From a virus, in UHGV virus genome UHGV-0218015: DNA of 64,000 nt. One strand, given 5' to 3'. Made by a program: the position numbers and the translations under genes. Positions 29,523-50,431 of this stretch are shown piece by piece (positions within the stretch are counted from its first letter, which is position 1; each line of letters starts with the position of its first letter). The notes beneath the pieces were generated by a model. That model did no database searches. It was given only the letters and a program-made list of their open reading frames with translations, and was not told the DNA's origin.

Positions 29523-29549
29523 TTTGATATTTAGCTGTAAAATGACTGT

Positions 29550-29598
29550 CTACCGCCCGATTCTATGGGCGGTAGATGTTTTTTATTTTTTTTTGATC
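29550..29598 (+). terminator. rho-independent terminator
   Basis: ctaccgccc...gggcggtag then long T-run. Confidence 0.75.
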
Positions 29599-29610
29599 TG
29601 GGAGGCTATA

Positions 29611-30171
29611 GTGGCCACATACGTACCTGATTTAAGTCTGTCCTCAGCCGAATTGGTGGTCGCTTTAATCAACCACGATAACGGTTCACGGTTGTCTCTA
29701 AGCGAAATTCGTATTAGCAACACTATGGCAAACCTGTCCCCGACTACGTCGCGTCGTAACACACTGACAGAGATTACAAAAATCAGGAAACCTGATGGTG
29801 CTTCTGTAGTTGTTTATTACGACCGCTTGGATGCGGACAAAGTGTTAGCGTCCGAACCTATTTTGATTTCGTTAGATGGTACCGAAGACAACCTTCGTGA
29901 CATTTTAGGTGTTGTAAATGAATTCTGCGGAACGAACTTACAACCCGAGGATTTACATGCTTCAGATATCACTTTAGGTAACGATCCTATTGCTGTCAAC
30001 GTTGCTGACGATTCTCCAGCGTGGGTGAATGCGTTTATGGTGACGTTATTTGATAAAACTGAACGGGCATTAGCAAACGAAGAAGATGCAATCTTCTGTA
30101 TTGGTGACGATGCTGTTCTTACATTTGAGGTTCCAGATGGAGACTCCGCTGAAGAAAACCCGGCTACATGA
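29611..30171 (+). CDS. RBP-module accessory protein (paralog of 36262..36774)
   Basis: Track start 29524 lies inside terminator 29550-29598; GTG at 29611 after GGAGG is consistent with the paralog N-terminus (TYVPDLSLSS vs KFTPDLSLTS). Confidence 0.45.
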   Translation: MATYVPDLSLSSAELVVALINHDNGSRLSLSEIRISNTMANLSPTTSRRNTLTEITKIRKPDGASVVVYYDRLDADKVLASEPILISLDGTEDNLRDILGVVNEFCGTNLQPEDLHASDITLGNDPIAVNVADDSPAWVNAFMVTLFDKTERALANEEDAIFCIGDDAVLTFEVPDGDSAEENPAT

Positions 30172-30376: not shown

Positions 30377-33300
30377 ATGGCTAAAGCGGTAAAGAAAATA
30401 CGTTTACACGACTTACATCCGTACACCGGGGATATCGGTGAAGGCGTTTTACTTTTTTCGAAAGACGAAAAAGATTATAAGTTACCAGTCCGCGAGATCG
30501 TTGCGGACATTGACACCGTCAGAAGTGCGGTTGCTGATGCACAAACGGCTGCGGCCAAATCACAACAGTCCGCAACAGAAGCTACGAAAGCTAAAGATTT
30601 AGCAGAAACAGCGAAGCAACAGACCACCACTTTAGCTTCCACAGTTAATGAGCAAGCGGGAACCGTCGCCACTAAAACTGCGGAGGTTAACAAAAAACAC
30701 GCTGAAGTTTTAGCAGCGAAAACTGCCGTAGATACTGTTTCACAATCAGTAAATGAGAAGGCTCAAGCTGTCGCCGCAAGCGAACAATCTGTGACAGCTG
30801 TAGCGGCTGATGTAACTAAGAAAGCAGAAACGGTTACGCAACGGGCCGGACAGGTTCAACAGACCGCTACCAGTATCGCAAATACTGCGGCTTCAATTGA
30901 GGCCAGTAAGGGCGCGGTGGAGAAGGTTGCTGCGCAGGTTACGAAAGATAAAGAAAGCTCAGAAGGCGCAGCTACACGCTCGGAGTCAGCCGCTCTGCGT
31001 GCGGAGAAAATCGCTGCACAGGGTTTAGTTGACGCTAGTACGACCGGTAAAGGTATCGTTAAACTTAACAATACCCTGACTAGCGAATCCGTGACGGAGG
31101 CTGCCACACCGTCCACGGTTAAACAGCTGAACGACGAATTACAGTTAAAAGCCGATAAACATTCGCCGAATTTTACGGGTAACCCGACATCACCAACGCC
31201 TCCAAAGGACTCGAATGACACGAGCATCTCCACAACGGCCTGGGTGCGTGCTGCTATCGCGGAATTGGTTGGTTCTTCACCTGAGACGTTAGATACCTTA
31301 GCGGAATTAGCTACGGCGTTAGGTAATGACCCTAACTTCGCAACAACGATTACTGAGAAACTTGCACAGAAGCAACCTATCAGTCCACTACTTACTGCTA
31401 TTGCCGCAGTCACAACCGCAGCAAACAAGCTCCCTTATTTCACTGGCACTAATAAAGTCGGGTTAACTGACTTTACAGAAACCGCCAGAACCTTGTTAGC
31501 AAAAGGGACAACTGCGGATATCATCAATTTCTTGGGATTAAAAGCCACTGTAGATAAAGCGAACTCTGCGTTACAGAAAAACTCTAACGGTGCTGATATC
31601 CCCAATAAAGAAACCTTTGCTCGCAATATTGGTCTATCTCCTGATACCTATCTGCGTTTCCGTGGTGAAATGCCCGCAGATGCTGATATTAACACATTTG
31701 CTCCAGATGCCAATTACACAGGAACATGGTCCAAGTCGACATCAACAAACGCATCGATAGCAAAACACTTCCCGGAAGACGGTGCGGTAGGTTATCTAGA
31801 AGTGTATAAAGCGGGCAACTACAGTGGAGCGCAACGTTTTACCTGCCGTAATGGTAACGTGTACAACCGCATGTTGTCAGCCGCGTGGAACGGAACTAAT
31901 GGCCCGTGGTCACCGTGGAGAATGGTAACTACAGGTGTACGCCCGTTATCTACATCGATCGATCTGAACTCCTTAGGCGGCGCTGAGCACATGGGTAACT
32001 GGCGTAACTCGTCCAGTTCGTTAGCGGTGTTCGACAGACATTATCCTGAAGAGGGCGGTAATGCGCAAGGCGTATTAGAAGTCATGGAAGGCGGTCTTTA
32101 TGGACGTTTACAACGTTACACCACTCGTCGTGGTACGATGTATGTCCGTGGTTTGACTGCGACTTGGGATTCGTCTAATCCGCAGTGGGAAGATTGGATT
32201 CAGGTTGGGTATCAGGTAGACGGTGCCTACTATAAGGGTAGCTTTAACGACTTAACTAAACCGGGTCGCTTTAGTGTTACCGGCGAGGCTACAGACGGTC
32301 CGTTAACAGACTCTGCTGGCGCAACCTTGCTAGGCGTTTGCGAAGTTACCTTACGCTTAGACGGTTCAGGTGTTGAACAAAATTATACCACATACGGTAC
32401 AGGCGCAACTTCGAAAGGTCGCAAGTTCCAACGAATTCGTACAGGAAATGCCTGGAGCGAATGGCGAGAGATTTTCACATCCTATTCACTCCCGTTGGCT
32501 TTAGGGATCGGTGGGGTTGCTGCTAAGGTAGATCCGTTAGACTGGCAAACCTTCGACTTCGTTCCTGGCCAGATGATAAGTACACCATTGAATACCATGA
32601 AAAACATTCCTGCGGGAATGGATTGGGGTGTTATCGACGGTAACTTGGTTACTATTCTTGTAGGGGCGTCGGAGGACACCGGTACTGGCCGGAGTATGTT
32701 GGTCTGGCGTGGTACAGTGTCTACTGCTAACTATCGCTTCTTTGCTGTTCGCGTCGCTGGTGAAAAGGGTAAACGTACTATTACTAGCCGCCAGATGCCC
32801 GTATTGAATGCAGCGCATACGTGGGCAGAAAAACAGACCTTTGCAAAAGGGTTATCAGGTGAGTTAACAGGCAATGCTGCTACGGCAACGAAACTGAAAA
32901 CAGCCCGTTTAATCGGCGGTGTAAGTTTCGACGGTAGCGGAGACATTAGCCTCCCTGGTGTAAACCAACAGGGTAATCAAAACACCTCTGGGAACGCGGG
33001 AACCGCAACCAAATTACAAACGGCTCGAAACATCAACGGTGTGAAATTTGATGGGTCTAGAGACATCAATATCAACACGTTGGTAGGACGTGGACGTGTT
33101 ACTGCACTGACTGGATCAAACAAAGGTACACCCGGTATTCAGATGTACGAAGTTTACAATAACGGTTATCCAACCGCTTATGGTAACTTACTGCATTTGG
33201 GCGGTTCTGCTGCGCTAGGCGAAGGGGAACTGTTAATCGGATGGTCGGGGACGAGCGGTGCGCACGCACCCGTTTATATTCGTAGTCGACGTGATACTGC

Positions 33301-34816
33301 TGATGCGCCGTGGTCAGATTGGGCACAAGTTTATACTGCCCGTGATAGCATTCCTGGTGTAAATGCCACAGGTAATCAGGATACTACCGGCAACGCCGCT
33401 ACCGCGACGAAACTGAAAACCGCTCGCAGGATCGGAGGCGTTAGCTTTGACGGTACAGGTGATATCAATTTACCGGGCGTTAACCAGCAAGGCAACCAGA
33501 ATACGACAGGTAATGCAGCGACCGCTACTAAGTTACAAACCGCACGTAAGATCGGCGGTGTGGTGTTCGATGGGACAAAAGACGTTAATCTTCCTGGTGT
33601 AAACCAAACCGGTAACCAATCGACTACGGGGAATGCGGCGACAGCGACTAAGCTACAGACTGCTCGAAATATAGGTGGCGTAGCTTTTGATGGTACTAAA
33701 GACATCAGTTTACCTGGAGTAAACCAAACAGGGAATCAGTCGACCACCGGAAACGCAGCCACGGCAACAAAGTTGCAAACCGCAAGAACCATCAATGGTA
33801 TTGCGTTTGATGGCACTAGAAATATATCGTTAGGGCCAGCCGAAATAGGTTGTCCGGCATCACCTAGTGGTTGGTTAGAAACTGGCGCTAATGGCGGTGC
33901 AATAACTACAGCACAGCTAGTGACGTTATTGAAAAATAACGGCGCATTTACCACAAGATCGTGGGTTGCTCGCTGTGCGTGGGCTTATGCCGCCAGTGCG
34001 TCCATACCTCACAGCGAGACGGGTTGTGGTGTCATTCCGTTAGCTGGGGCCGTTATAGAAGTCATTAGTAACGGCAACAGCACAAACAACTACACGATCC
34101 GTATAACGACCGCCACAACGACGAGCGTCGGCGGAGCACTCACTAATGCGGAGTTTATCTACGTATTTAACGGCGATGGATACTCACCAGGCTGGCGTCG
34201 TGCTTACAATACGAGAAACAAGCCAACTGCTGCGGAAGTGGGCGCGTTACCGTCAGGGGGCGGTACTGTAGGCGGTGATTTAACCGTTAATGGTAAATTG
34301 GCCACTAAATACCCTGATTTTCGAATCGCTTACGGTACCTACGGTTTTATTTTACGTAACGACGGTGCCAATACCTATTTCTTAGTAACCGACGCCGGAC
34401 AAGCCGCAGCGGGTTCCTGGAACGGATTACGCCCGTTGTCTTTTAATAATTCTAACGGCCAAGTAAACTTTGGACATAACGTTACTGGCAACGGTAACGG
34501 TTCGTTTAACGACGTACAGATTCGTTCTGACCGTCGTAACAAACGTAATCTGGTGAAGCTGGATAAAGCTTTGGATCGGTTAGAGTTACTAACCGGTTAT
34601 TTGTACGAAATTCAGCATCCTGATGACGGTTGGCAGACTTCTGTAGGTCTAATTGCTCAGGACGCATTAGAAGCGTTACCTGAACTTGTGTCAGAGGACG
34701 ACGATGCCATTTCAGGCGAAAAACGTTTACGTCTAAATTACAATGGCGTTATTGCGCTGTTAGTAGAGGGTATGAAGTCTCTTCGCCGAGAGCTTAAAGA
34801 ACTCAAGGGGAATTAA
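30377..34816 (+). CDS. tail fibre protein with C-terminal S74-type intramolecular chaperone
   Basis: 1479 aa; Ala-rich N-terminal region, TLDTLAELATALGNDPNF tail-fibre motif, six ~40-aa repeats (GNAATATKLQTAR..GGV.FDG), C-terminal SDRRNKRNLVKLDKALDRL...YNGVIALLVEGMKSL matching the autoproteolytic chaperone. Confidence 0.8.
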   Translation: MAKAVKKIRLHDLHPYTGDIGEGVLLFSKDEKDYKLPVREIVADIDTVRSAVADAQTAAAKSQQSATEATKAKDLAETAKQQTTTLASTVNEQAGTVATKTAEVNKKHAEVLAAKTAVDTVSQSVNEKAQAVAASEQSVTAVAADVTKKAETVTQRAGQVQQTATSIANTAASIEASKGAVEKVAAQVTKDKESSEGAATRSESAALRAEKIAAQGLVDASTTGKGIVKLNNTLTSESVTEAATPSTVKQLNDELQLKADKHSPNFTGNPTSPTPPKDSNDTSISTTAWVRAAIAELVGSSPETLDTLAELATALGNDPNFATTITEKLAQKQPISPLLTAIAAVTTAANKLPYFTGTNKVGLTDFTETARTLLAKGTTADIINFLGLKATVDKANSALQKNSNGADIPNKETFARNIGLSPDTYLRFRGEMPADADINTFAPDANYTGTWSKSTSTNASIAKHFPEDGAVGYLEVYKAGNYSGAQRFTCRNGNVYNRMLSAAWNGTNGPWSPWRMVTTGVRPLSTSIDLNSLGGAEHMGNWRNSSSSLAVFDRHYPEEGGNAQGVLEVMEGGLYGRLQRYTTRRGTMYVRGLTATWDSSNPQWEDWIQVGYQVDGAYYKGSFNDLTKPGRFSVTGEATDGPLTDSAGATLLGVCEVTLRLDGSGVEQNYTTYGTGATSKGRKFQRIRTGNAWSEWREIFTSYSLPLALGIGGVAAKVDPLDWQTFDFVPGQMISTPLNTMKNIPAGMDWGVIDGNLVTILVGASEDTGTGRSMLVWRGTVSTANYRFFAVRVAGEKGKRTITSRQMPVLNAAHTWAEKQTFAKGLSGELTGNAATATKLKTARLIGGVSFDGSGDISLPGVNQQGNQNTSGNAGTATKLQTARNINGVKFDGSRDININTLVGRGRVTALTGSNKGTPGIQMYEVYNNGYPTAYGNLLHLGGSAALGEGELLIGWSGTSGAHAPVYIRSRRDTADAPWSDWAQVYTARDSIPGVNATGNQDTTGNAATATKLKTARRIGGVSFDGTGDINLPGVNQQGNQNTTGNAATATKLQTARKIGGVVFDGTKDVNLPGVNQTGNQSTTGNAATATKLQTARNIGGVAFDGTKDISLPGVNQTGNQSTTGNAATATKLQTARTINGIAFDGTRNISLGPAEIGCPASPSGWLETGANGGAITTAQLVTLLKNNGAFTTRSWVARCAWAYAASASIPHSETGCGVIPLAGAVIEVISNGNSTNNYTIRITTATTTSVGGALTNAEFIYVFNGDGYSPGWRRAYNTRNKPTAAEVGALPSGGGTVGGDLTVNGKLATKYPDFRIAYGTYGFILRNDGANTYFLVTDAGQAAAGSWNGLRPLSFNNSNGQVNFGHNVTGNGNGSFNDVQIRSDRRNKRNLVKLDKALDRLELLTGYLYEIQHPDDGWQTSVGLIAQDALEALPELVSEDDDAISGEKRLRLNYNGVIALLVEGMKSLRRELKELKGN
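32833..33072 (+). repeat. in-frame 120-bp coding repeats, copies 1-2 (tail fibre)
   Basis: Units begin cctggtgtaaacc; encode GNAATATKL.TAR..GGV.FDG. Confidence 0.6.
33353..33832 (+). repeat. four tandem 120-bp coding repeats (tail fibre)
   Basis: Unit starts at 33353, 33473, 33593, 33713; protein-level conservation with synonymous divergence. Confidence 0.7.
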
Positions 34817-34821
34817 AGATA

Positions 34822-34848
34822 GGGGGAGTAATCCCCCTAATTTAGTTT
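34822..34848 (+). terminator. terminator candidate after tail fibre gene
   Basis: aggggg-agtaat-ccccct then aatttagttt. Confidence 0.4.
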
Positions 34849-34857
34849 GGAGGATTT

Positions 34858-35403
34858 ATGGGGGTAGCATCCGGCTGGGTTGGAAGCTCAGCAAAGGCAG
34901 TAACCGGTCAGGAGTGGATGAGTGTGGCAGGTAATAAGCTTAAACTGAGCACGCCATTTAACATGTCGCAGATGGTCGGGCGTAGCGTAGAGGATCTTAA
35001 ACTCGTTGTAGGCCGATCAACCTATGTTGTTTTGGTGCAGGCTACGAACACGCAGTGGGTTCCTATTACAAATACGTATGGGGGGTATTCGAACAACTCT
35101 ACAACAACGGGTGCTGGTTCTACAGTATCGAATCGTGTGCAAACACAAAATGCGGCCGGTTCGGTGTCAGGTTCGATCTTGGGTTGTAGCGTCACACATC
35201 TTAGCCAAGTACAAAATACTGGTATTATCTACATGGCCCTAACCAATGGACCAAATCAGAATATTACGCTTTCGTTTAACGGAACGAAGATTACTTTTCT
35301 ACCGTACTCCTACAGTAACGGCGTCCGGCGCTATGAGGCTAAGACGGCAACCAACTGGTTATTTAATCAGAACGGTGCAACAATTTCAATAAGTGTAGTC
35401 TAA
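34858..35403 (+). CDS. tail-fibre-associated protein (paralog of 35657..36163)
   Basis: N-terminus MGVASGWVGSSAKAVTGQEWMS matches the paralog; sits immediately after the fibre gene. Confidence 0.45.
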   Translation: MGVASGWVGSSAKAVTGQEWMSVAGNKLKLSTPFNMSQMVGRSVEDLKLVVGRSTYVVLVQATNTQWVPITNTYGGYSNNSTTTGAGSTVSNRVQTQNAAGSVSGSILGCSVTHLSQVQNTGIIYMALTNGPNQNITLSFNGTKITFLPYSYSNGVRRYEAKTATNWLFNQNGATISISVV

Positions 35404-35413
35404 GGACAGAAAG

Positions 35414-35644
35414 ATGTTAAGAAAAGTTTTACTGGGTTTCGCATTGCTTACAGTAAGTGGATGTCAACAACTACCCGAACCTGTATGTTACGGCACAGCT
35501 AAGCTGGGTAATGAAGAGACTACGATCAATATTTTCGACGTAAAAAAGCAGGGCAGATACACACTTTATAAAGCTGATCATCATTATAATTGGCGTTGGG
35601 TTGGGCGTGGTGCTTTCGATTCAATAACATGTAGAAAATCTTAA
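35414..35644 (+). CDS. small lipoprotein
   Basis: Signal peptide with lipobox LTVSGC; 76 aa. Confidence 0.5.
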   Translation: MLRKVLLGFALLTVSGCQQLPEPVCYGTAKLGNEETTINIFDVKKQGRYTLYKADHHYNWRWVGRGAFDSITCRKS

Positions 35645-35656
35645 CAGGAGATCGCG

Positions 35657-36163
35657 ATGGGGGGGGTAACCGGTTCGTGGGTCGGTTCTTCGGCCAAGAA
35701 CGAAACGGGCGAACAATGGATGAGCGCTGCTGGTAGTAAATTAGGATTGGGTAGACCTTTTATGATGAGTCAAATGGTGGGACGATCTATGGGCTGTAAA
35801 ATTGCAACCGCTGCATATAGCGATTCTTTAGGTAAGAAATGGGGCGCAGTAGGACCAAGCTGGCCGTTAAACCAGAAAAATCAGGGAACCATTCAAAACG
35901 CGGGTAACTGCGGGGTGGGAACTTTAGTAGGTATTGAGTTACAGTTAACGACGATAGTTGCCAACGCAAAGCCTACTTTAGCGGTTTACTTACAAGGAGG
36001 CAGAGCCTCTAACATTACCGTAAATTTAGGTGGTAACACCTGCGCGCTGGCCTATCAGCAGGTTATTAACGGACAGCATTATTACTGGACTAATAACATC
36101 AGCGCTGCGTTCCAAAACGTGATGAAATCGACAGGCGCACTGCGTGATTTGAGAATTAGCTAA
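35657..36163 (+). CDS. tail-fibre-associated protein (paralog), G8 tract at codons 1-4
   Basis: ATG GGG GGG GTA start; N-terminus matches 34858 gene. Confidence 0.45.
   Translation: MGGVTGSWVGSSAKNETGEQWMSAAGSKLGLGRPFMMSQMVGRSMGCKIATAAYSDSLGKKWGAVGPSWPLNQKNQGTIQNAGNCGVGTLVGIELQLTTIVANAKPTLAVYLQGGRASNITVNLGGNTCALAYQQVINGQHYYWTNNISAAFQNVMKSTGALRDLRIS
35659..35666 (+). repeat. G8 homopolymer at codons 1-4 of the 35657 gene
   Basis: atgggggggggta; the paralog at 34858 has only G5 here. Confidence 0.7.
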
Positions 36164-36261: not shown

Positions 36262-36774
36262 GTGGAAAAATTCACACCAGATTTATCACTAACTTCACTT
36301 AACATGGTTATTTCACTGGTTAACCATGACCTCCAACTTGACTTGCAAGAGAACGAGGTTGAAGTCAGTGACGTAAAAACCAGTGATGAAATGGATCGTG
36401 ACTCCACTGCCATTGTAAAGATTAAACGTCCTGGAAACAGAACGTTGCAAATCTACTACAACCGTTTAACCGCAGAGCGGTGGTTAAACCAACAACCTAT
36501 TCTGGTAAAAGTAAGAGGTGAAGGGTTTAATGCACACGATCTTATCGAATCCGTCAATGCCGTTTGTGGTGCTAACTTACAAACCGACGATTTAACCGAC
36601 CAGTCGTTCACGGTAGGTAAAGACGCGGTAACGCTTAGCATCGCTCCGAATTCCATCGCTTATAAAGGACAGTTCTCCGTGGTGGTTTTCGGCCCAGATG
36701 AAACACCGTGTGGCATCGGTGATGATTCTGTCGTGTTGACGTTTGACAATAAAATCTTAACTTTTGGAGAGTAG
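36262..36774 (+). CDS. RBP-module accessory protein (paralog of 29611..30171)
   Basis: GTG start after AGGAGG; sits directly upstream of the second RBP gene. Confidence 0.45.
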   Translation: MEKFTPDLSLTSLNMVISLVNHDLQLDLQENEVEVSDVKTSDEMDRDSTAIVKIKRPGNRTLQIYYNRLTAERWLNQQPILVKVRGEGFNAHDLIESVNAVCGANLQTDDLTDQSFTVGKDAVTLSIAPNSIAYKGQFSVVVFGPDETPCGIGDDSVVLTFDNKILTFGE

Positions 36775-36777
36775 TAG

Positions 36778-38898
36778 ATGAGTCAGCCAATTGGAAAGAA
36801 ACGTATCCATGAACTCGACAATTTCTCTGGCGATCTCAAAGGTGCGTTAGTTCTTCTTTCTAAGGAAGAAAAAGAATATAAAATTGATATTGCAAAACTT
36901 CAGGGCACGACGGAGCCGGAGTATTACTTCGTGATTCCTATAGCCGGGCAATCTAATGCGATGAGTTATGGTGAAGGGTTGCCTCTACCGGCGACGTTGG
37001 ACGCTCCCGATCCGCGAATTAAACAGATGGCGCGCCGTGCGAAGGTAACGCCTAATGGGGCTGATTGTAAATATAACGACGTCATTCCAGCGGATCACTG
37101 TCTGCACGACGTGCAAGATATGTCCAAATACTCGCATCCCAATGCCAATTTGAGCAAAGGTGAATACGGATGTGTGGGTCAAGGTCTACATATCGCGAAG
37201 CGTCTTCTCCCGTATATTCCTAAGAACGCCGGTATCTTACTAGTACCCTGCGCACGCGGCGGTTCTGCTTTCACGGGTGGTGCAGAAGGTACCTTCGATG
37301 AAGCCACAGGAGCCACTGAGTCGTCAATGCTATGGGGGGTGGAGAAACCGCTTTATAAAGATTTAGTTAGCCGGACCAAAAAAGCTCTAGAAGTTAATCC
37401 TAAAAATAAACTCTTGGCTGTAGTGTGGATGCAGGGAGAGTATGATCTGACTAAAGTACAATACGCACAACAACCAGCGTTATTTAACGCAATGGTAGAG
37501 CGTTTCCGAACTGATCTCTCTGACCATCTCTCTCAGATGCCCGAGTACGACACCGCCGAAGTACCATGGATCTGCGGGGACACTACCTATTATTGGAAGG
37601 AAAAATATCCTGCCCAATATGAAACCGTATACGGTAATTATCGTAACAATGAACAAAAAAATATCTTTTTTGTTCCATTCATGTACGACGATAATGGCCA
37701 ACGTGTACCGACTAATGATCCCACTGACGATCCTGATATCACTGGTGCGGCCTATTACGGTGCTGCCTCCCGTACTGTTAAAAACTGGACGTCTGAAACA
37801 AGGAATAGCCATTTCAGTTCTTGGGCACGACGCGGTATTATCTCAGAGAGAATAGCTGCCGAGATATTATCAAGAACAGCGATTGGTGCAATGTTCCTGA
37901 CGAAGAACGACACTAAGAGCTCCAAAGACAATAAGAATGTGGTAAGAAGCTATACCCCATTAGTAGAGTCTGTGGGTTATAACGGACGTCGTGGGGATGG
38001 TTCCCTGAAAGGGCAAGGTTGGAACAATATCGTTGATTGTAACGTAACCGTGCAAGATTCTGAGGATGGAAACGGGCATTTCGTCGAATTAAGAAAGGCT
38101 GTAAAGATGAAACCTTGGAATGTAACTAAGTCAATGACATCTGCTGCGGACATGATACGTTACGGTGGACGTCTGACCGTTACTTTTAGACTAAAAGGTG
38201 ATTTAGCAGCAGATCGTTTCGGATTAGGACTTTATTGGCGTATTTCCGCGTCCGACCTACCTTCTGGTACTACATTTGCTGACGCTGGTGTGGCTGAGAC
38301 GAACCCGTACCTAATGTCTTTTTTCTTACAGACCGACGCTACGAATCTTAATCTGATGCATCATAAAAAGCAAAATGCGAAATTAGGAACTTTTGGTGCG
38401 TACGATAATAACTGGCATACGCTTGAAATCATTTATCCTGGTGCCAATAAAACCACAGTCACACCTGTGCTGGACGGTACGAATGGTACTCCATTTGATC
38501 TGGCGAACAGTCCAGCTAAGACCGATTTGAACGAATTGGTTCTGACGGATATTACGAAAGTTACTGCCTATGATATCGATATTTCTAAGTTTGAGATCTC
38601 GGTCAATCGTGATTCTGGTAGCATAGTGTTATCTGAGGAAGATGTGTCGTCTTATGTGTATTTCCCACCCACCAACCGTGGCGGCCAACTTACTATTCCT
38701 GATCTAGAATATAGTGTGGGCAGAAATATTCAGATCGTGGCAAATAAGGCTGGTAAGATCACCGTTAAACCGGAAAATTCAAACGTTCTCATCACTCCAA
38801 AGAGTGGGACAGAAGGTCTTGCCAAACCCATTGATACCAATGAAAGTATTACGCTAATGCAGATTGGTTCCGATGGTAAAAGCTGGGTAGTTATTTAA
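36778..38898 (+). CDS. tailspike/RBP with SGNH (SASA-type) esterase domain
   Basis: N-terminal ~35 aa shared with the fibre at 30377; then IPIAGQSNAMSYGEG resembling the GQSN block of sialate O-acetylesterase/SGNH hydrolases. Confidence 0.55.
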   Translation: MSQPIGKKRIHELDNFSGDLKGALVLLSKEEKEYKIDIAKLQGTTEPEYYFVIPIAGQSNAMSYGEGLPLPATLDAPDPRIKQMARRAKVTPNGADCKYNDVIPADHCLHDVQDMSKYSHPNANLSKGEYGCVGQGLHIAKRLLPYIPKNAGILLVPCARGGSAFTGGAEGTFDEATGATESSMLWGVEKPLYKDLVSRTKKALEVNPKNKLLAVVWMQGEYDLTKVQYAQQPALFNAMVERFRTDLSDHLSQMPEYDTAEVPWICGDTTYYWKEKYPAQYETVYGNYRNNEQKNIFFVPFMYDDNGQRVPTNDPTDDPDITGAAYYGAASRTVKNWTSETRNSHFSSWARRGIISERIAAEILSRTAIGAMFLTKNDTKSSKDNKNVVRSYTPLVESVGYNGRRGDGSLKGQGWNNIVDCNVTVQDSEDGNGHFVELRKAVKMKPWNVTKSMTSAADMIRYGGRLTVTFRLKGDLAADRFGLGLYWRISASDLPSGTTFADAGVAETNPYLMSFFLQTDATNLNLMHHKKQNAKLGTFGAYDNNWHTLEIIYPGANKTTVTPVLDGTNGTPFDLANSPAKTDLNELVLTDITKVTAYDIDISKFEISVNRDSGSIVLSEEDVSSYVYFPPTNRGGQLTIPDLEYSVGRNIQIVANKAGKITVKPENSNVLITPKSGTEGLAKPIDTNESITLMQIGSDGKSWVVI

Positions 38899-38904
38899 TT
38901 TAAA

Positions 38905-38945
38905 CCGTAGGATGGACTTAGTCCATCCTACGGTTTTTATATTTT
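38905..38945 (+). terminator. rho-independent terminator after tailspike gene
   Basis: 13-bp stem ccgtaggatggac / gtccatcctacgg then T-run. Confidence 0.8.
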
Positions 38946-49918: not shown

Positions 49919-49950
49919 CCCTACTCCCGATAAGGAGTAGGGTAGTTTTT
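49919..49950. terminator. bidirectional terminator (+ block end / minus lipoprotein gene end)
   Basis: ccctactcc-cgataa-ggagtaggg with T-run downstream. Confidence 0.6.
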
Positions 49951-50431
49951 ATTGTTCCGCAGGATGGAGCATTGTTCCAGTGTCAGACGCTACACCTTCT
50001 TTACAGTGGAAGAAAGTAATGCCTTTACCATCACCCGTTTTATATTCTAAAGTAGAATACGCAAACGTTGGCGTTTTTGAAAGTAAGCCATTTACACGAT
50101 AGTAACGTTGTCCTGTGATAGGATCAATATTCCCATTAACTTTACCTAATAAATCTTTATAAAGTTGCGGCGACTCAATCTTGCCGTTTGGCCAAGTGGC
50201 TACCCAGTTAGCACCAGTATCGAGTACAGTTACTGACCCTAGCATTATATTAGTCGAGCTGACGACAGGTTTGTAATTTGCAAAATCTTGCTCTGCACCC
50301 ATACAGGTGTAAATAACCATATCATGTGGCTCCACCGGCACAGTCGAGAATTGGCCGTTACCATTCGGTTGTAAGGCACATCCTGCCAATGAAAAAACAC
50401 CAACCATAACGATAAGAAAACGTTTTATCAT
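49949..50431 (-). CDS. lipoprotein
   Basis: Isolated minus-strand gene; ATG at 50431 after AAGGTG; signal peptide with lipobox LAGC; flanked by terminators. Confidence 0.55.
   Translation of the reverse strand: MIKRFLIVMVGVFSLAGCALQPNGNGQFSTVPVEPHDMVIYTCMGAEQDFANYKPVVSSTNIMLGSVTVLDTGANWVATWPNGKIESPQLYKDLLGKVNGNIDPITGQRYYRVNGLLSKTPTFAYSTLEYKTGDGKGITFFHCKEGVASDTGTMLHPAEQ

What the first reader, a model, noticed from the sequence alone, without database searches (positions are those of the whole stretch)
35414..35644. Small lipoprotein gene inside the receptor-binding locus
A 76-aa ORF with a signal peptide and lipobox (LTVSGC) sits between tail-fibre-associated genes. Phage T5 encodes a small lipoprotein (Llp) next to its receptor-binding gene that blocks the receptor after infection; this position suggests a similar superinfection-exclusion or lysis-protection role.
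Basis: inference. Interest (0 to 1): 0.45.

Follow-up and report, generated by a model that had tools for sequence, protein, structure and literature searches.

The report
Cor-type receptor-blocking lipoprotein in jumbo phage
The small gene is a real member of the known Cor/Llp family of phage lipoproteins, which block an outer-membrane receptor from inside the infected cell; the only unusual points are that it sits in a giant (jumbo) phage and travels as a cassette with a tail-fibre tip adhesin.

Summary
The 76-aa ORF at 35414-35644 (+) exists as described. It has a canonical lipoprotein signal peptide (R3, K4, hydrophobic core, lipobox VSGC, Cys17, Gln at +2) and its own Shine-Dalgarno site.

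It is a clear Cor-family superinfection-exclusion lipoprotein:
- PHROG 1119, E=1e-25.
- NCBIfam NF047972, 69 bits against a cutoff of 31.
- 61.5% identity to Cor of Stx2-converting phage 86, 54% to SSU5, and 40-44% to the FhuA-blocking Cor proteins of phi80, HK022 and N15.

The window comes from an SPN3US/phiEaH2-like jumbo phage. No Cor homologue was seen in any other phage record over 113 kb.

The gene is the 3' end of a mobile cassette: fibre S74 C-terminus, then a gp38-type adhesin, then cor. The same cassette occurs in Stx phages and SSU5-like phage-plasmids, and this Cor subclade had this adhesin type upstream in all 24 places that could be checked.

The blocked receptor is not established. 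It is probably a TonB-dependent transporter, with FhuA the leading candidate. This is a new member of a known kind, of moderate-to-low interest.

The parts
35414..35644 (+). cor: a 76-aa precursor of a Cor-family exclusion lipoprotein. The mature protein is 60 aa, about 7.0 kDa, pI about 8.9.
35414..35464 (+). Type II (lipoprotein) signal peptide MLRKVLLGFALLTVSG|C. Cys17 (35462-35464) is the predicted lipidated first residue of the mature protein. Gln at +2 predicts sorting to the outer membrane.
   Evidence: Pattern check. The lipobox Cys is conserved in the family alignments.
35402..35406 (+). Shine-Dalgarno sequence AAGGA, 7 nt upstream of the cor ATG. It overlaps the TAA stop codon (35401-35403) of adhesin 1.
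   Evidence: Read directly from the sequence.
34858..35403 (+). Adhesin 1: a 181-aa gp38-type tail-fibre tip adhesin with a Gp38_N attachment domain (aa 1-40) and a 136-aa receptor-binding part.
   Evidence: Pfam PF21721 E=2e-20. PHROG 1121 E=7e-53. 69% identity to Stx2-86 gp22 and 50% to SSU5_022. The N-terminus matches phage S16 gp38 (6f45_D, E=3e-8). The receptor-binding part was found only in the 12 phage records that also hold the closest Cor.
34478..34816 (+). C-terminal ~112 aa of the 1479-aa fibre (Peptidase_S74 intramolecular chaperone region). This is the 5' end of the shared cassette.
   Evidence: 69% identity to the last 110 aa of Stx2-86 gp21, while the rest of the two fibres is unrelated. 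Found upstream of adhesin 1 and cor in 12 of 12 IMG/VR loci that hold upstream sequence. Pfam S74.
30377..34816 (+). Long tail fibre, 1479 aa, with ~40-aa repeats, a Gp34_trimer domain and an S74 chaperone.
   Evidence: The near-identical relative L001 has 1439 aa, 40 aa shorter (about one repeat unit).
35657..36163 (+). Adhesin 2: a 168-aa second gp38-type adhesin. Its Gp38_N domain resembles that of adhesin 1, but the receptor-binding part is unrelated. Its own SD (AGGAG, 35646-35650) starts 2 nt after the cor stop codon.
   Evidence: A homologue in phage-plasmid CMS-2020a (L005 5983-6495) has no cor next to it. 96% nucleotide identity over 135 nt (35678-35812) to CMS-2020a.
38902..38936 (+). 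Strong terminator-like hairpin (16-bp stem followed by a T-run). It is the likely end of the fibre/adhesin/cor/second-fibre transcription unit.
   Evidence: No sigma-70-like promoter on the + strand between the fibre gene and cor.

Best explanation
The ORF encodes a Cor/Llp-type receptor-blocking lipoprotein.

Shown by sequence, homology and model:
- A 76-aa precursor with a type II signal peptide and lipobox Cys17.
- A 60-aa mature beta-rich domain with the family's conserved Cys pair (C25 and C73, i.e. mature Cys9 and Cys57, which matches the Cys11-Cys58 disulfide of T5 Llp).
- The NWRWV motif.
- Full-length homology to Cor proteins.
- An Llp-like predicted fold.
- A position at the 3' end of a fibre-tip/adhesin cassette, in the same tightly packed operon.

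Inferred:
- The protein is made in the infected cell from the tail-fibre transcript and exported by Sec.
- There it binds the periplasmic face of an outer-membrane beta-barrel receptor. This is most probably a TonB-dependent transporter, with FhuA the leading candidate.
- Binding locks the receptor's surface loops in a conformation that phage receptor-binding proteins cannot use, as solved for Llp-FhuA.
- The benefit is either exclusion of further infecting phages that use that receptor, or protection of released progeny from being wasted on envelope debris.

The gene reached this SPN3US/phiEaH2-like jumbo phage by horizontal exchange of a cassette (fibre S74 C-terminus, gp38-type adhesin, cor) with temperate enterobacterial phages and phage-plasmids.
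For: Family membership:
- PHROG 1119 E=1.3e-25, covering 6-76 of 78 profile positions.
- NF047972 69 bits against a cutoff of 31.
- tblastn hits fall on genes annotated cor in 83 phage records at E<=1e-3. Top hits: Stx2-86/POCJ13 61.5%, SSU5 54%, N15 44%, phi80/HK022 40%.
- An exhaustive HMMER search gives 14 cluster representatives, all 64-110 aa.
- Alignments show the conserved lipobox Cys, C25, C73 and NWRWV.

Fold:
- AF2 mean pLDDT 84.7, about 95 over residues 21-70.
- BFVD top hits are a 'super-infection exclusion protein' (E=1e-5, TM 0.72) and lipoproteins of T5-like phages.

Literature:
[quoted passage not shown] The authors state that Cor probably works the same way (PMC9586334).
- Cor and Llp are judged to be one structural family (bioRxiv 10.64898/2026.03.26.714494; PMC13164509).
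- Cor-like genes also occur in BtuB-using phages (PMC13164509).

Cassette and linkage:
- The last ~110 aa of the fibre are 69% identical, adhesin 1 is 69% identical and Cor is 61.5% identical to Stx2-86 gp21, gp22 and gp23.
- The receptor-binding part of adhesin 1 hits exactly the 12 phage records that carry the closest Cor.
- In IMG/VR, 12 of 12 loci of this Cor subclade that hold upstream sequence have the same fibre end and adhesin upstream.
- The syntenic locus of SPN3US has neither adhesin nor cor.
- A near-identical 225-kb metagenomic jumbo-phage contig keeps the gene intact.
Against:
- The SSU5 homologue of the neighbouring adhesin (gp22, 50% identical) is reported to bind LPS core oligosaccharide (PMC12312913 citing Kim et al. 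2014). The genetic linkage therefore need not mean that Cor masks the adhesin's receptor.
- A recent receptor screen reports that its model predictions of FhuA and BtuB use were restricted to siphoviruses (bioRxiv 10.64898/2026.04.02.716166). This phage belongs to the SPN3US/phiEaH2 jumbo-phage group.
- The gene has no recognisable promoter of its own and lies 10 nt behind a structural gene. If it is expressed only late, it cannot prevent early superinfection.
- Sequence similarity to Llp itself is not significant (E=0.11; Foldseek E=0.87).
Confidence: 0.78

Rival explanations
1. The biochemistry is the same, but the beneficiary is different. Cor blocks a receptor (for example FhuA) that this jumbo phage does not use itself. 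In that case the gene serves only to shut out competing T1-, T5- or phi80-like phages during the infection. Alternatively it is a passenger that came along with the adhesin cassette.
For: - All functionally characterised Cor proteins act on FhuA (literature).
- Predictions of FhuA and BtuB use were restricted to siphoviruses in the receptor preprint.
- The SSU5 homologue of adhesin 1 is reported to bind LPS core, not a protein.
- cor sits at the 3' edge of a recombining cassette. The next gene carries a 96%-identical 135-nt junction to an E. coli phage-plasmid.
- SPN3US, a relative, lacks cor at the syntenic locus, and none of the listed Cor hits lies in a relative of this phage group.
Against: - There is perfect co-occurrence and parallel divergence of this Cor subclade with this adhesin type across three unrelated phage groups: 12 of 12 phage records and 12 of 12 IMG/VR loci.
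- In T1-, phi80-, N15- and T5-type phages, the presence of cor/llp tracks the phage's own receptor (PMC13164509).
- The ORF is intact, with all family motifs, in two independent assemblies.
Confidence: 0.35
2. The gene is an outer-membrane spanin subunit (Rz1-type o-spanin), the other common kind of small phage lipoprotein, and acts in lysis.
For: It is small and has a lipobox with a predicted outer-membrane location.
Against: - There is no i-spanin, holin or endolysin gene next to it. The neighbours are fibre and adhesin genes.
- The mature part is not proline-rich (3 Pro in 60 residues) and is predicted to be a compact beta domain.
- There is a strong match to Cor models and no spanin family hit.
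- SSU5 carries both a Cor homologue and separate spanins.
Confidence: 0.02
3. The gene is a decaying or non-functional remnant carried over with the adhesin cassette, with no role in the jumbo phage.
For: - It is known in only one jumbo-phage lineage.
- It lacks the two partner genes of the extended cassette.
Against: - The reading frame is full-length, with an optimally spaced SD.
- The signal peptide, all three Cys and the conserved motifs are intact.
- The fold prediction is confident.
Confidence: 0.07

Closest known systems
Cor of Stx2-converting phage 86 (gp23), Shigella phage POCJ13 and related Sepvirinae Stx prophages
   Same: It is the closest sequence relative (61.5% over aa 11-75). 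The gene order is identical: fibre with S74 C-terminus, 181-aa gp38-type adhesin (69% identical), then cor 12 nt downstream.
   Different: Those are temperate, short-tailed phages of about 60 kb in which cor can act as a lysogenic-conversion gene. Here the carrier is a jumbo phage of about 225-240 kb of the SPN3US/phiEaH2 group, and a second adhesin follows cor. The receptor is unknown for both.
Cor of Salmonella phage-plasmid SSU5 (SSU5_025) and SSU5-like elements (Kluyvera contigs, IMG/VR contigs)
   Same: 54% identity, the same subclade, and the same fibre end and adhesin type upstream.
   Different: [quoted passage not shown] They are absent here. SSU5 is reported to use LPS core through gp22 (PMC12312913).
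Cor of phi80, N15, HK022 and the mEp phages (lambdoid) and of T1. These are the experimentally studied FhuA-inactivating exclusion lipoproteins.
   Same: The same family by curated HMM. Identity is 38-44% to phi80, N15 and HK022 and 23-25% to T1. They share the length, lipobox, Cys pair, NW(R/Q)WV motif and a position just after the tail-fibre genes.
   Different: Those phages are siphoviruses that bind FhuA with a J-type tip plus two accessory proteins. Here the neighbours are gp38-type fibre-tip adhesins. FhuA specificity is not shown for this subclade.
Llp of phage T5 (PDB 8a60 chain B and 7qjf)
   Different: There is no significant sequence similarity. According to PMC9586334, T5 llp lies next to and downstream of the pb5 gene in a siphovirus. 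The gene here is co-oriented with, and 10 nt downstream of, a fibre adhesin gene.
Rtp45 of phage Rtp (exclusion protein that binds LptDE, PDB 9RPS)
   Same: The same logic: a small exclusion protein encoded next to the receptor-binding protein blocks the receptor from the periplasmic side (PMC12685063).
   Different: It has a different target (LptD). It did not appear among the sequence or fold matches here. It shows that the class is not restricted to FhuA.

Membership tests
Cor exclusion lipoproteins (NCBIfam NF047972 / PHROG 1119) | Score above the curated family threshold over the full length | tested here: met
   NF047972: 69 bits against a cutoff of 31, residues 6-75 on profile positions 6-78 of 78. 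PHROG 1119: E=1.3e-25.
Cor exclusion lipoproteins (NCBIfam NF047972 / PHROG 1119) | Precursor of about 75-80 aa with a lipoprotein signal peptide and a lipobox Cys | tested here: met
   76 aa, with R3, K4, a hydrophobic core and VSGC ending in Cys17. It fits the PROSITE-type rule. The Cys is conserved in the family alignment. SignalP and LipoP were not available.
Cor exclusion lipoproteins (NCBIfam NF047972 / PHROG 1119) | Conserved Cys pair near both ends of the mature domain, and the aromatic NW(R)WV motif | tested here: met
   C25, C73 and N59-W-R-W-V63 align with Stx2-86, SSU5, N15, phi80 and T1 Cor. Formation of the disulfide itself was not tested.
Cor exclusion lipoproteins (NCBIfam NF047972 / PHROG 1119) | Encoded directly downstream of the tail-fibre / receptor-binding genes | tested here: met
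   The gene lies 10 nt after adhesin 1 and 12 nt before adhesin 2. The placement is comparable in Stx2-86, SSU5, N15 and phi80.
Cor exclusion lipoproteins (NCBIfam NF047972 / PHROG 1119) | Extended three-gene cassette ('outer membrane protein' + 'membrane-associated protein' + cor), which is associated with FhuA-dependent phages | tested here: not met
   There is no homologue of SSU5_023 or SSU5_024 anywhere in the window (tblastn at E<1e-4). The feature is not universal: T5-like phages carry Cor-like genes without these partners (PMC13164509).
Cor exclusion lipoproteins (NCBIfam NF047972 / PHROG 1119) | Inactivates FhuA and excludes FhuA-dependent phages | not testable with these tools
   This needs expression and plating assays, or complex prediction with FhuA. 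No multimer prediction with outside sequences was possible.
Cor exclusion lipoproteins (NCBIfam NF047972 / PHROG 1119) | Outer-membrane (inner leaflet) location | tested here: inconclusive
   Gln at +2 (no Asp retention signal) predicts Lol sorting to the outer membrane. The location itself cannot be tested here.
T5 Llp (lytic conversion lipoprotein) | Llp fold | tested here: met
T5 Llp (lytic conversion lipoprotein) | Significant sequence similarity to Llp | tested here: not met
   phmmer against the PDB gives no hit. A Cor-family profile against 8a60_B gives E=0.11, aligned over positions 1-45 only (signal peptide and first part of the mature protein).
T5 Llp (lytic conversion lipoprotein) | Expression early enough in infection to exclude superinfecting phages | not testable with these tools
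   No sigma-70-like promoter lies upstream and the gene is co-oriented within a structural operon. Promoters of this jumbo-phage group are not covered by the scan, so the timing is unknown.
o-spanin (Rz1-type) | Located in or next to an i-spanin gene within a lysis cassette, with a proline-rich periplasmic domain | tested here: not met
   The neighbours are fibre and adhesin genes. There are 3 Pro in 60 mature residues. No spanin family hit was found.

The most novel reading that the evidence does not exclude
The tight and repeated linkage of this Cor subclade with one type of gp38-like fibre-tip adhesin may reflect a matched receptor-binding / receptor-blocking pair. In that case a long-tail-fibre adhesin of a jumbo phage (and of Stx phages, including the O104:H4-type prophage) would recognise a TonB-dependent transporter such as FhuA, or another protein that a periplasmic lipoprotein can switch off. 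Cor/Llp-type exclusion would then operate in a jumbo phage. Both points would extend a mechanism that the papers consulted here describe only for siphoviruses.
Probability: 0.2. Interest if true: 0.55.

Novelty: new member of a known kind. Interest (0 to 1): 0.33.

Why it matters
Cor/Llp lipoproteins are a structurally understood example of a virus switching off its receptor from inside the cell. In the papers consulted here they are described for T5-like and T1-like siphoviruses, lambdoid and Stx phages, and SSU5-like phage-plasmids.

Finding one in an SPN3US/phiEaH2-like jumbo phage shows that the module also moves into large virulent-type genomes. It arrived as part of a portable cassette of fibre end, adhesin and cor, shared with Stx phages and phage-plasmids. 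Host-range cassettes can therefore carry their own exclusion gene.

In practice, the gene predicts that cells infected by this phage become resistant to a class of other phages. It also gives an easy handle for identifying a receptor: express the gene and see which phages, colicins or siderophores stop working. It remains a family member with an expected role, so the value is incremental.

Tried and rejected
- Pfam gave no hit for the ORF.
- The word-indexed protein search returned only the 99%-identical copy.
- The sigma-70 promoter scan found fewer sites than shuffled controls and none upstream of cor on the + strand. It is not informative for a jumbo phage that may use other promoter types.
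- The composition profile shows no distinct island at cor.
- Scans of genomes and metagenomes for this subclade found only SSU5-like or Stx-like contexts and no further jumbo phage.
- The original SSU5 receptor paper (PMC3911222) is not held, so the gp22 / LPS-core statement rests on a secondary citation.
- The receptor could not be assigned. No complex prediction with FhuA or other outer-membrane proteins was possible.
- The spanin, pseudogene and chance-ORF readings were considered and rejected; the reasons are under the rival explanations.

Full report
**Observation**

Its N-terminus, MLRKVLLGFALLTVSG|C, has two basic residues, a ten-residue hydrophobic core and the lipobox V-S-G-C with Cys17. 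It satisfies the PROSITE-type lipoprotein rule. Only 4 of 488 Met-started ORF candidates in the window do so, and one of the others also looks like a real lipoprotein gene. Residue +2 is Gln, which on established Lol-sorting rules predicts an outer-membrane location. An AAGGA Shine-Dalgarno sequence lies 7 nt before the ATG and overlaps the stop codon of the preceding gene.

**What it is**

Pfam has no model that matches, but two curated libraries do:
- PHROG 1119 'Cor superinfection exclusion protein', E=1.3e-25, nearly full length.
- The NCBIfam equivalog NF047972 'phage exclusion lipoprotein Cor', 69 bits against a cutoff of 31.

tblastn against 50,697 phage records finds 83 records at E<=1e-3, almost all on genes annotated cor:
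- Stx2-converting phage 86, POCJ13 and related Stx phages: 61.5%.
- Phage-plasmid SSU5: 54%.
- N15: 44%.
- phi80, HK022 and the mEp phages: 40%.
- T1-like phages: about 25%.
- Weak matches to the Cor-like lipoproteins of T5-like phages.

An exhaustive HMMER search of 1.8 billion cluster representatives finds only 14 representatives, all of similar size. Alignments show the invariant or nearly invariant lipobox Cys, a second Cys (C25), a third near the C-terminus (C73) and the motif NWRWV.

**Structure**

The AlphaFold2 model built on the family alignment is confident in the mature domain (pLDDT about 95 for residues 21-70). It is a small beta structure.

- Foldseek against the PDB gave only insignificant SH3/Tudor-like hits. 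T5 Llp was at rank 44, although with the lowest rmsd.
- In the viral structure library the best hits are a 'super-infection exclusion protein' and lipoproteins of T5-like phages.
- The Cys pair corresponds to mature Cys9 and Cys57. This parallels the Cys11-Cys58 disulfide that ties the termini of Llp together (PMC9586334).
- Two recent papers conclude independently that Cor and Llp share one fold and probably one mechanism (bioRxiv 10.64898/2026.03.26.714494; PMC13164509).

The precise statement is that the protein is a member of the Cor family, and that family is a structural relative of Llp.

**Genomic setting**

The window is part of a jumbo phage.
- Its large proteins match PHROGs of giant-phage virion and polymerase proteins.
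- A 905-aa protein, annotated as portal or virion structural protein in relatives, is 72-73% identical to that of Erwinia phage phiEaH2, Salmonella phage SPN3US and relatives of about 240 kb.
- A 98-99% identical metagenomic contig is 225 kb long.

The gene order is as follows:
1. A DUF7941 protein.
2. A 1479-aa fibre with a C-terminal S74 chaperone.
3. Adhesin 1 (181 aa, with a Gp38_N domain).
4. cor.
5. Adhesin 2 (168 aa, also with a Gp38_N domain).
6. A second DUF7941 protein.
7. A 706-aa SASA-esterase tail protein.
8. A strong terminator-like hairpin.

The syntenic locus of SPN3US has neither adhesin nor cor. None of the Cor hits listed was in a record larger than 113 kb, and the organism counts leave essentially no room for SPN3US-like phages among them. 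Scans of IMG/VR, one genome per species, and JGI metagenomes found no further jumbo-phage copy. A text search found no paper discussing Cor in a jumbo phage.

**A mobile cassette**

Against Stx2-converting phage 86, three consecutive pieces are similar:
- The last ~110 aa of the fibre (69%).
- Adhesin 1 (69%).
- Cor (61.5%).

The remainder of the two fibres is unrelated. In that phage the segment was annotated as a region specific to the O86 phage and absent from the O157 phage.

The receptor-binding part of adhesin 1 (aa 46-181) matches exactly 12 phage records. These are the same 12 that hold the closest Cor proteins, and the ranking by identity is the same. In IMG/VR, all 12 loci of this Cor subclade that contain upstream sequence have the same fibre end and adhesin type. 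In 6 of them cor follows the adhesin directly. In the other 6, SSU5-like, two genes lie in between.

About 2% of complete E. coli genomes (99 of 5,426, including O104:H4 strains) carry a copy of the fibre-end/adhesin segment at about 65% nucleotide identity.

The right-hand edge of the cassette in the window is the conserved Gp38_N coding region of adhesin 2. It contains a 135-nt stretch 96% identical to the E. coli phage-plasmid CMS-2020a, which carries the adhesin-2 type without cor. These facts point to exchange of fibre-tip cassettes by recombination in the conserved S74 and Gp38_N segments, with cor riding at the 3' end. They also point to an enterobacterial host.

**How it most likely works**

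Shown here: the signal peptide and lipobox, family homology, the Llp-like fold, and the operon position.

Inferred from established knowledge of lipoprotein biogenesis and from the solved Llp-FhuA complex (PMC9586334):
[quoted passage not shown] - An allosteric closing of surface loops, so that phages can no longer use the receptor.

All tested Cor proteins act on FhuA, and Cor-like genes also occur in BtuB-using phages (PMC13164509). A TonB-dependent transporter is therefore the most likely target class, and FhuA the single best guess.

The FhuA-specific Cor proteins themselves are only 35-38% identical to each other (T1 against phi80 and N15). The window protein is 38-39% identical to phi80 and N15 Cor in the same alignment. 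Sequence distance therefore does not argue against FhuA.

**What remains open**

It is not settled whether Cor blocks this phage's own receptor. The genetic linkage to adhesin 1 suggests a matched pair, as with pb5 and llp. Four points count against that:
- The SSU5 homologue of the adhesin (gp22) is reported to recognise LPS core oligosaccharide (PMC12312913, citing a paper I could not read).
- The two accessory genes typical of FhuA-type loci are missing.
- Predictions of FhuA and BtuB use were restricted to siphoviruses in a recent receptor-prediction study.
- The gene has no visible promoter of its own, so its timing is unknown.

If expression is late, the main benefit would be protection of progeny from adsorbing to debris, rather than exclusion of early superinfection. 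An alternative of substantial weight (about one in three) is that the gene only excludes competitor phages, or is a passenger of the cassette.

The spanin and pseudogene readings are poorly supported.

**Verdict**

The feature is a new member of the known Cor/Llp kind. It is noteworthy mainly for its carrier (a jumbo phage) and for the conserved adhesin-cor cassette shared with Stx phages and SSU5-like phage-plasmids. Interest is moderate to low unless the adhesin-Cor pair turns out to define a new receptor relationship for fibre-tip adhesins.

Noticed in passing
window 35659-35666: A run of 8 G sits at the very start of the adhesin 2 gene (ATG GGG GGG GTA...). The 98-99% identical metagenomic relative L001 has 9 G. 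That shifts the frame, so its gene was called from a downstream start (124 aa instead of 168 aa). This could be phase-variable expression of the second adhesin, or a homopolymer error in an assembly.
   Followed up: partly
window 49949-50431 (- strand): A second ORF with a canonical lipoprotein signal (MIKRFLIVMVGVFSLAGC..., 160 aa from the ATG at 50431). It matches PHROG 9559, of unknown function.
   Followed up: partly
window 34858-35403 and 35657-36163: Two different gp38-type adhesins share only the ~43-aa fibre-attachment domain (67% identical) and have unrelated receptor-binding parts. The same fibre may be tipped with alternative adhesins. An SSU5-like IMG/VR contig (L018 2484-5299) has the same theme: adhesin, two small genes, cor, then a 296-aa adhesin with glycine-rich runs resembling the GRMs described for classical Gp38.
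   Followed up: partly
window 35678-35812: This is the only stretch of the 24-kb region 20000-44000 with high DNA identity to any phage record: 96% over 135 nt to E. coli phage-plasmid CMS-2020a, inside the Gp38_N coding part of adhesin 2. It looks like a recent recombination junction.
   Followed up: partly
window 30377-34816 versus L001 5084-9403: The long fibre contains diverged ~40-aa repeats (NQ.T.GNAATATKL.TAR.IGGV.FDG..DI.LPGV). It is 1479 aa here but 1439 aa in the near-identical relative, a difference of 40 aa, about one repeat unit.
   Followed up: no
window 29524-30171 and 36262-36774; 36778-38898: Two paralogous DUF7941 proteins each precede a fibre-like gene. The second fibre-like protein (706 aa) carries a SASA/SGNH carbohydrate-esterase domain and DUF6645. 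SPN3US has only one such DUF7941-fibre unit at the syntenic site.
   Followed up: no
window 34820-34839: A perfect 8-bp GC-rich hairpin (TAGGGGGA-GTAA-TCCCCCTA) lies in the 41-nt gap between the fibre gene and adhesin 1. It is weakly terminator-like on both strands and might set the ratio of fibre to adhesin/cor transcripts.
   Followed up: no
L026 (JAGXLH010000043.1, 3001-3129): A contig binned as a Thermoplasmatota archaeon MAG encodes a 48%-identical partial match to the Cor subclade (aa 11-62). It may be a mis-binned contig.
   Followed up: no
L010 2498-2725 (phage DT57C): The T5-like phage DT57C carries its Cor-like gene in the middle of the tRNA gene cluster rather than next to its receptor-binding gene.
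   Followed up: no
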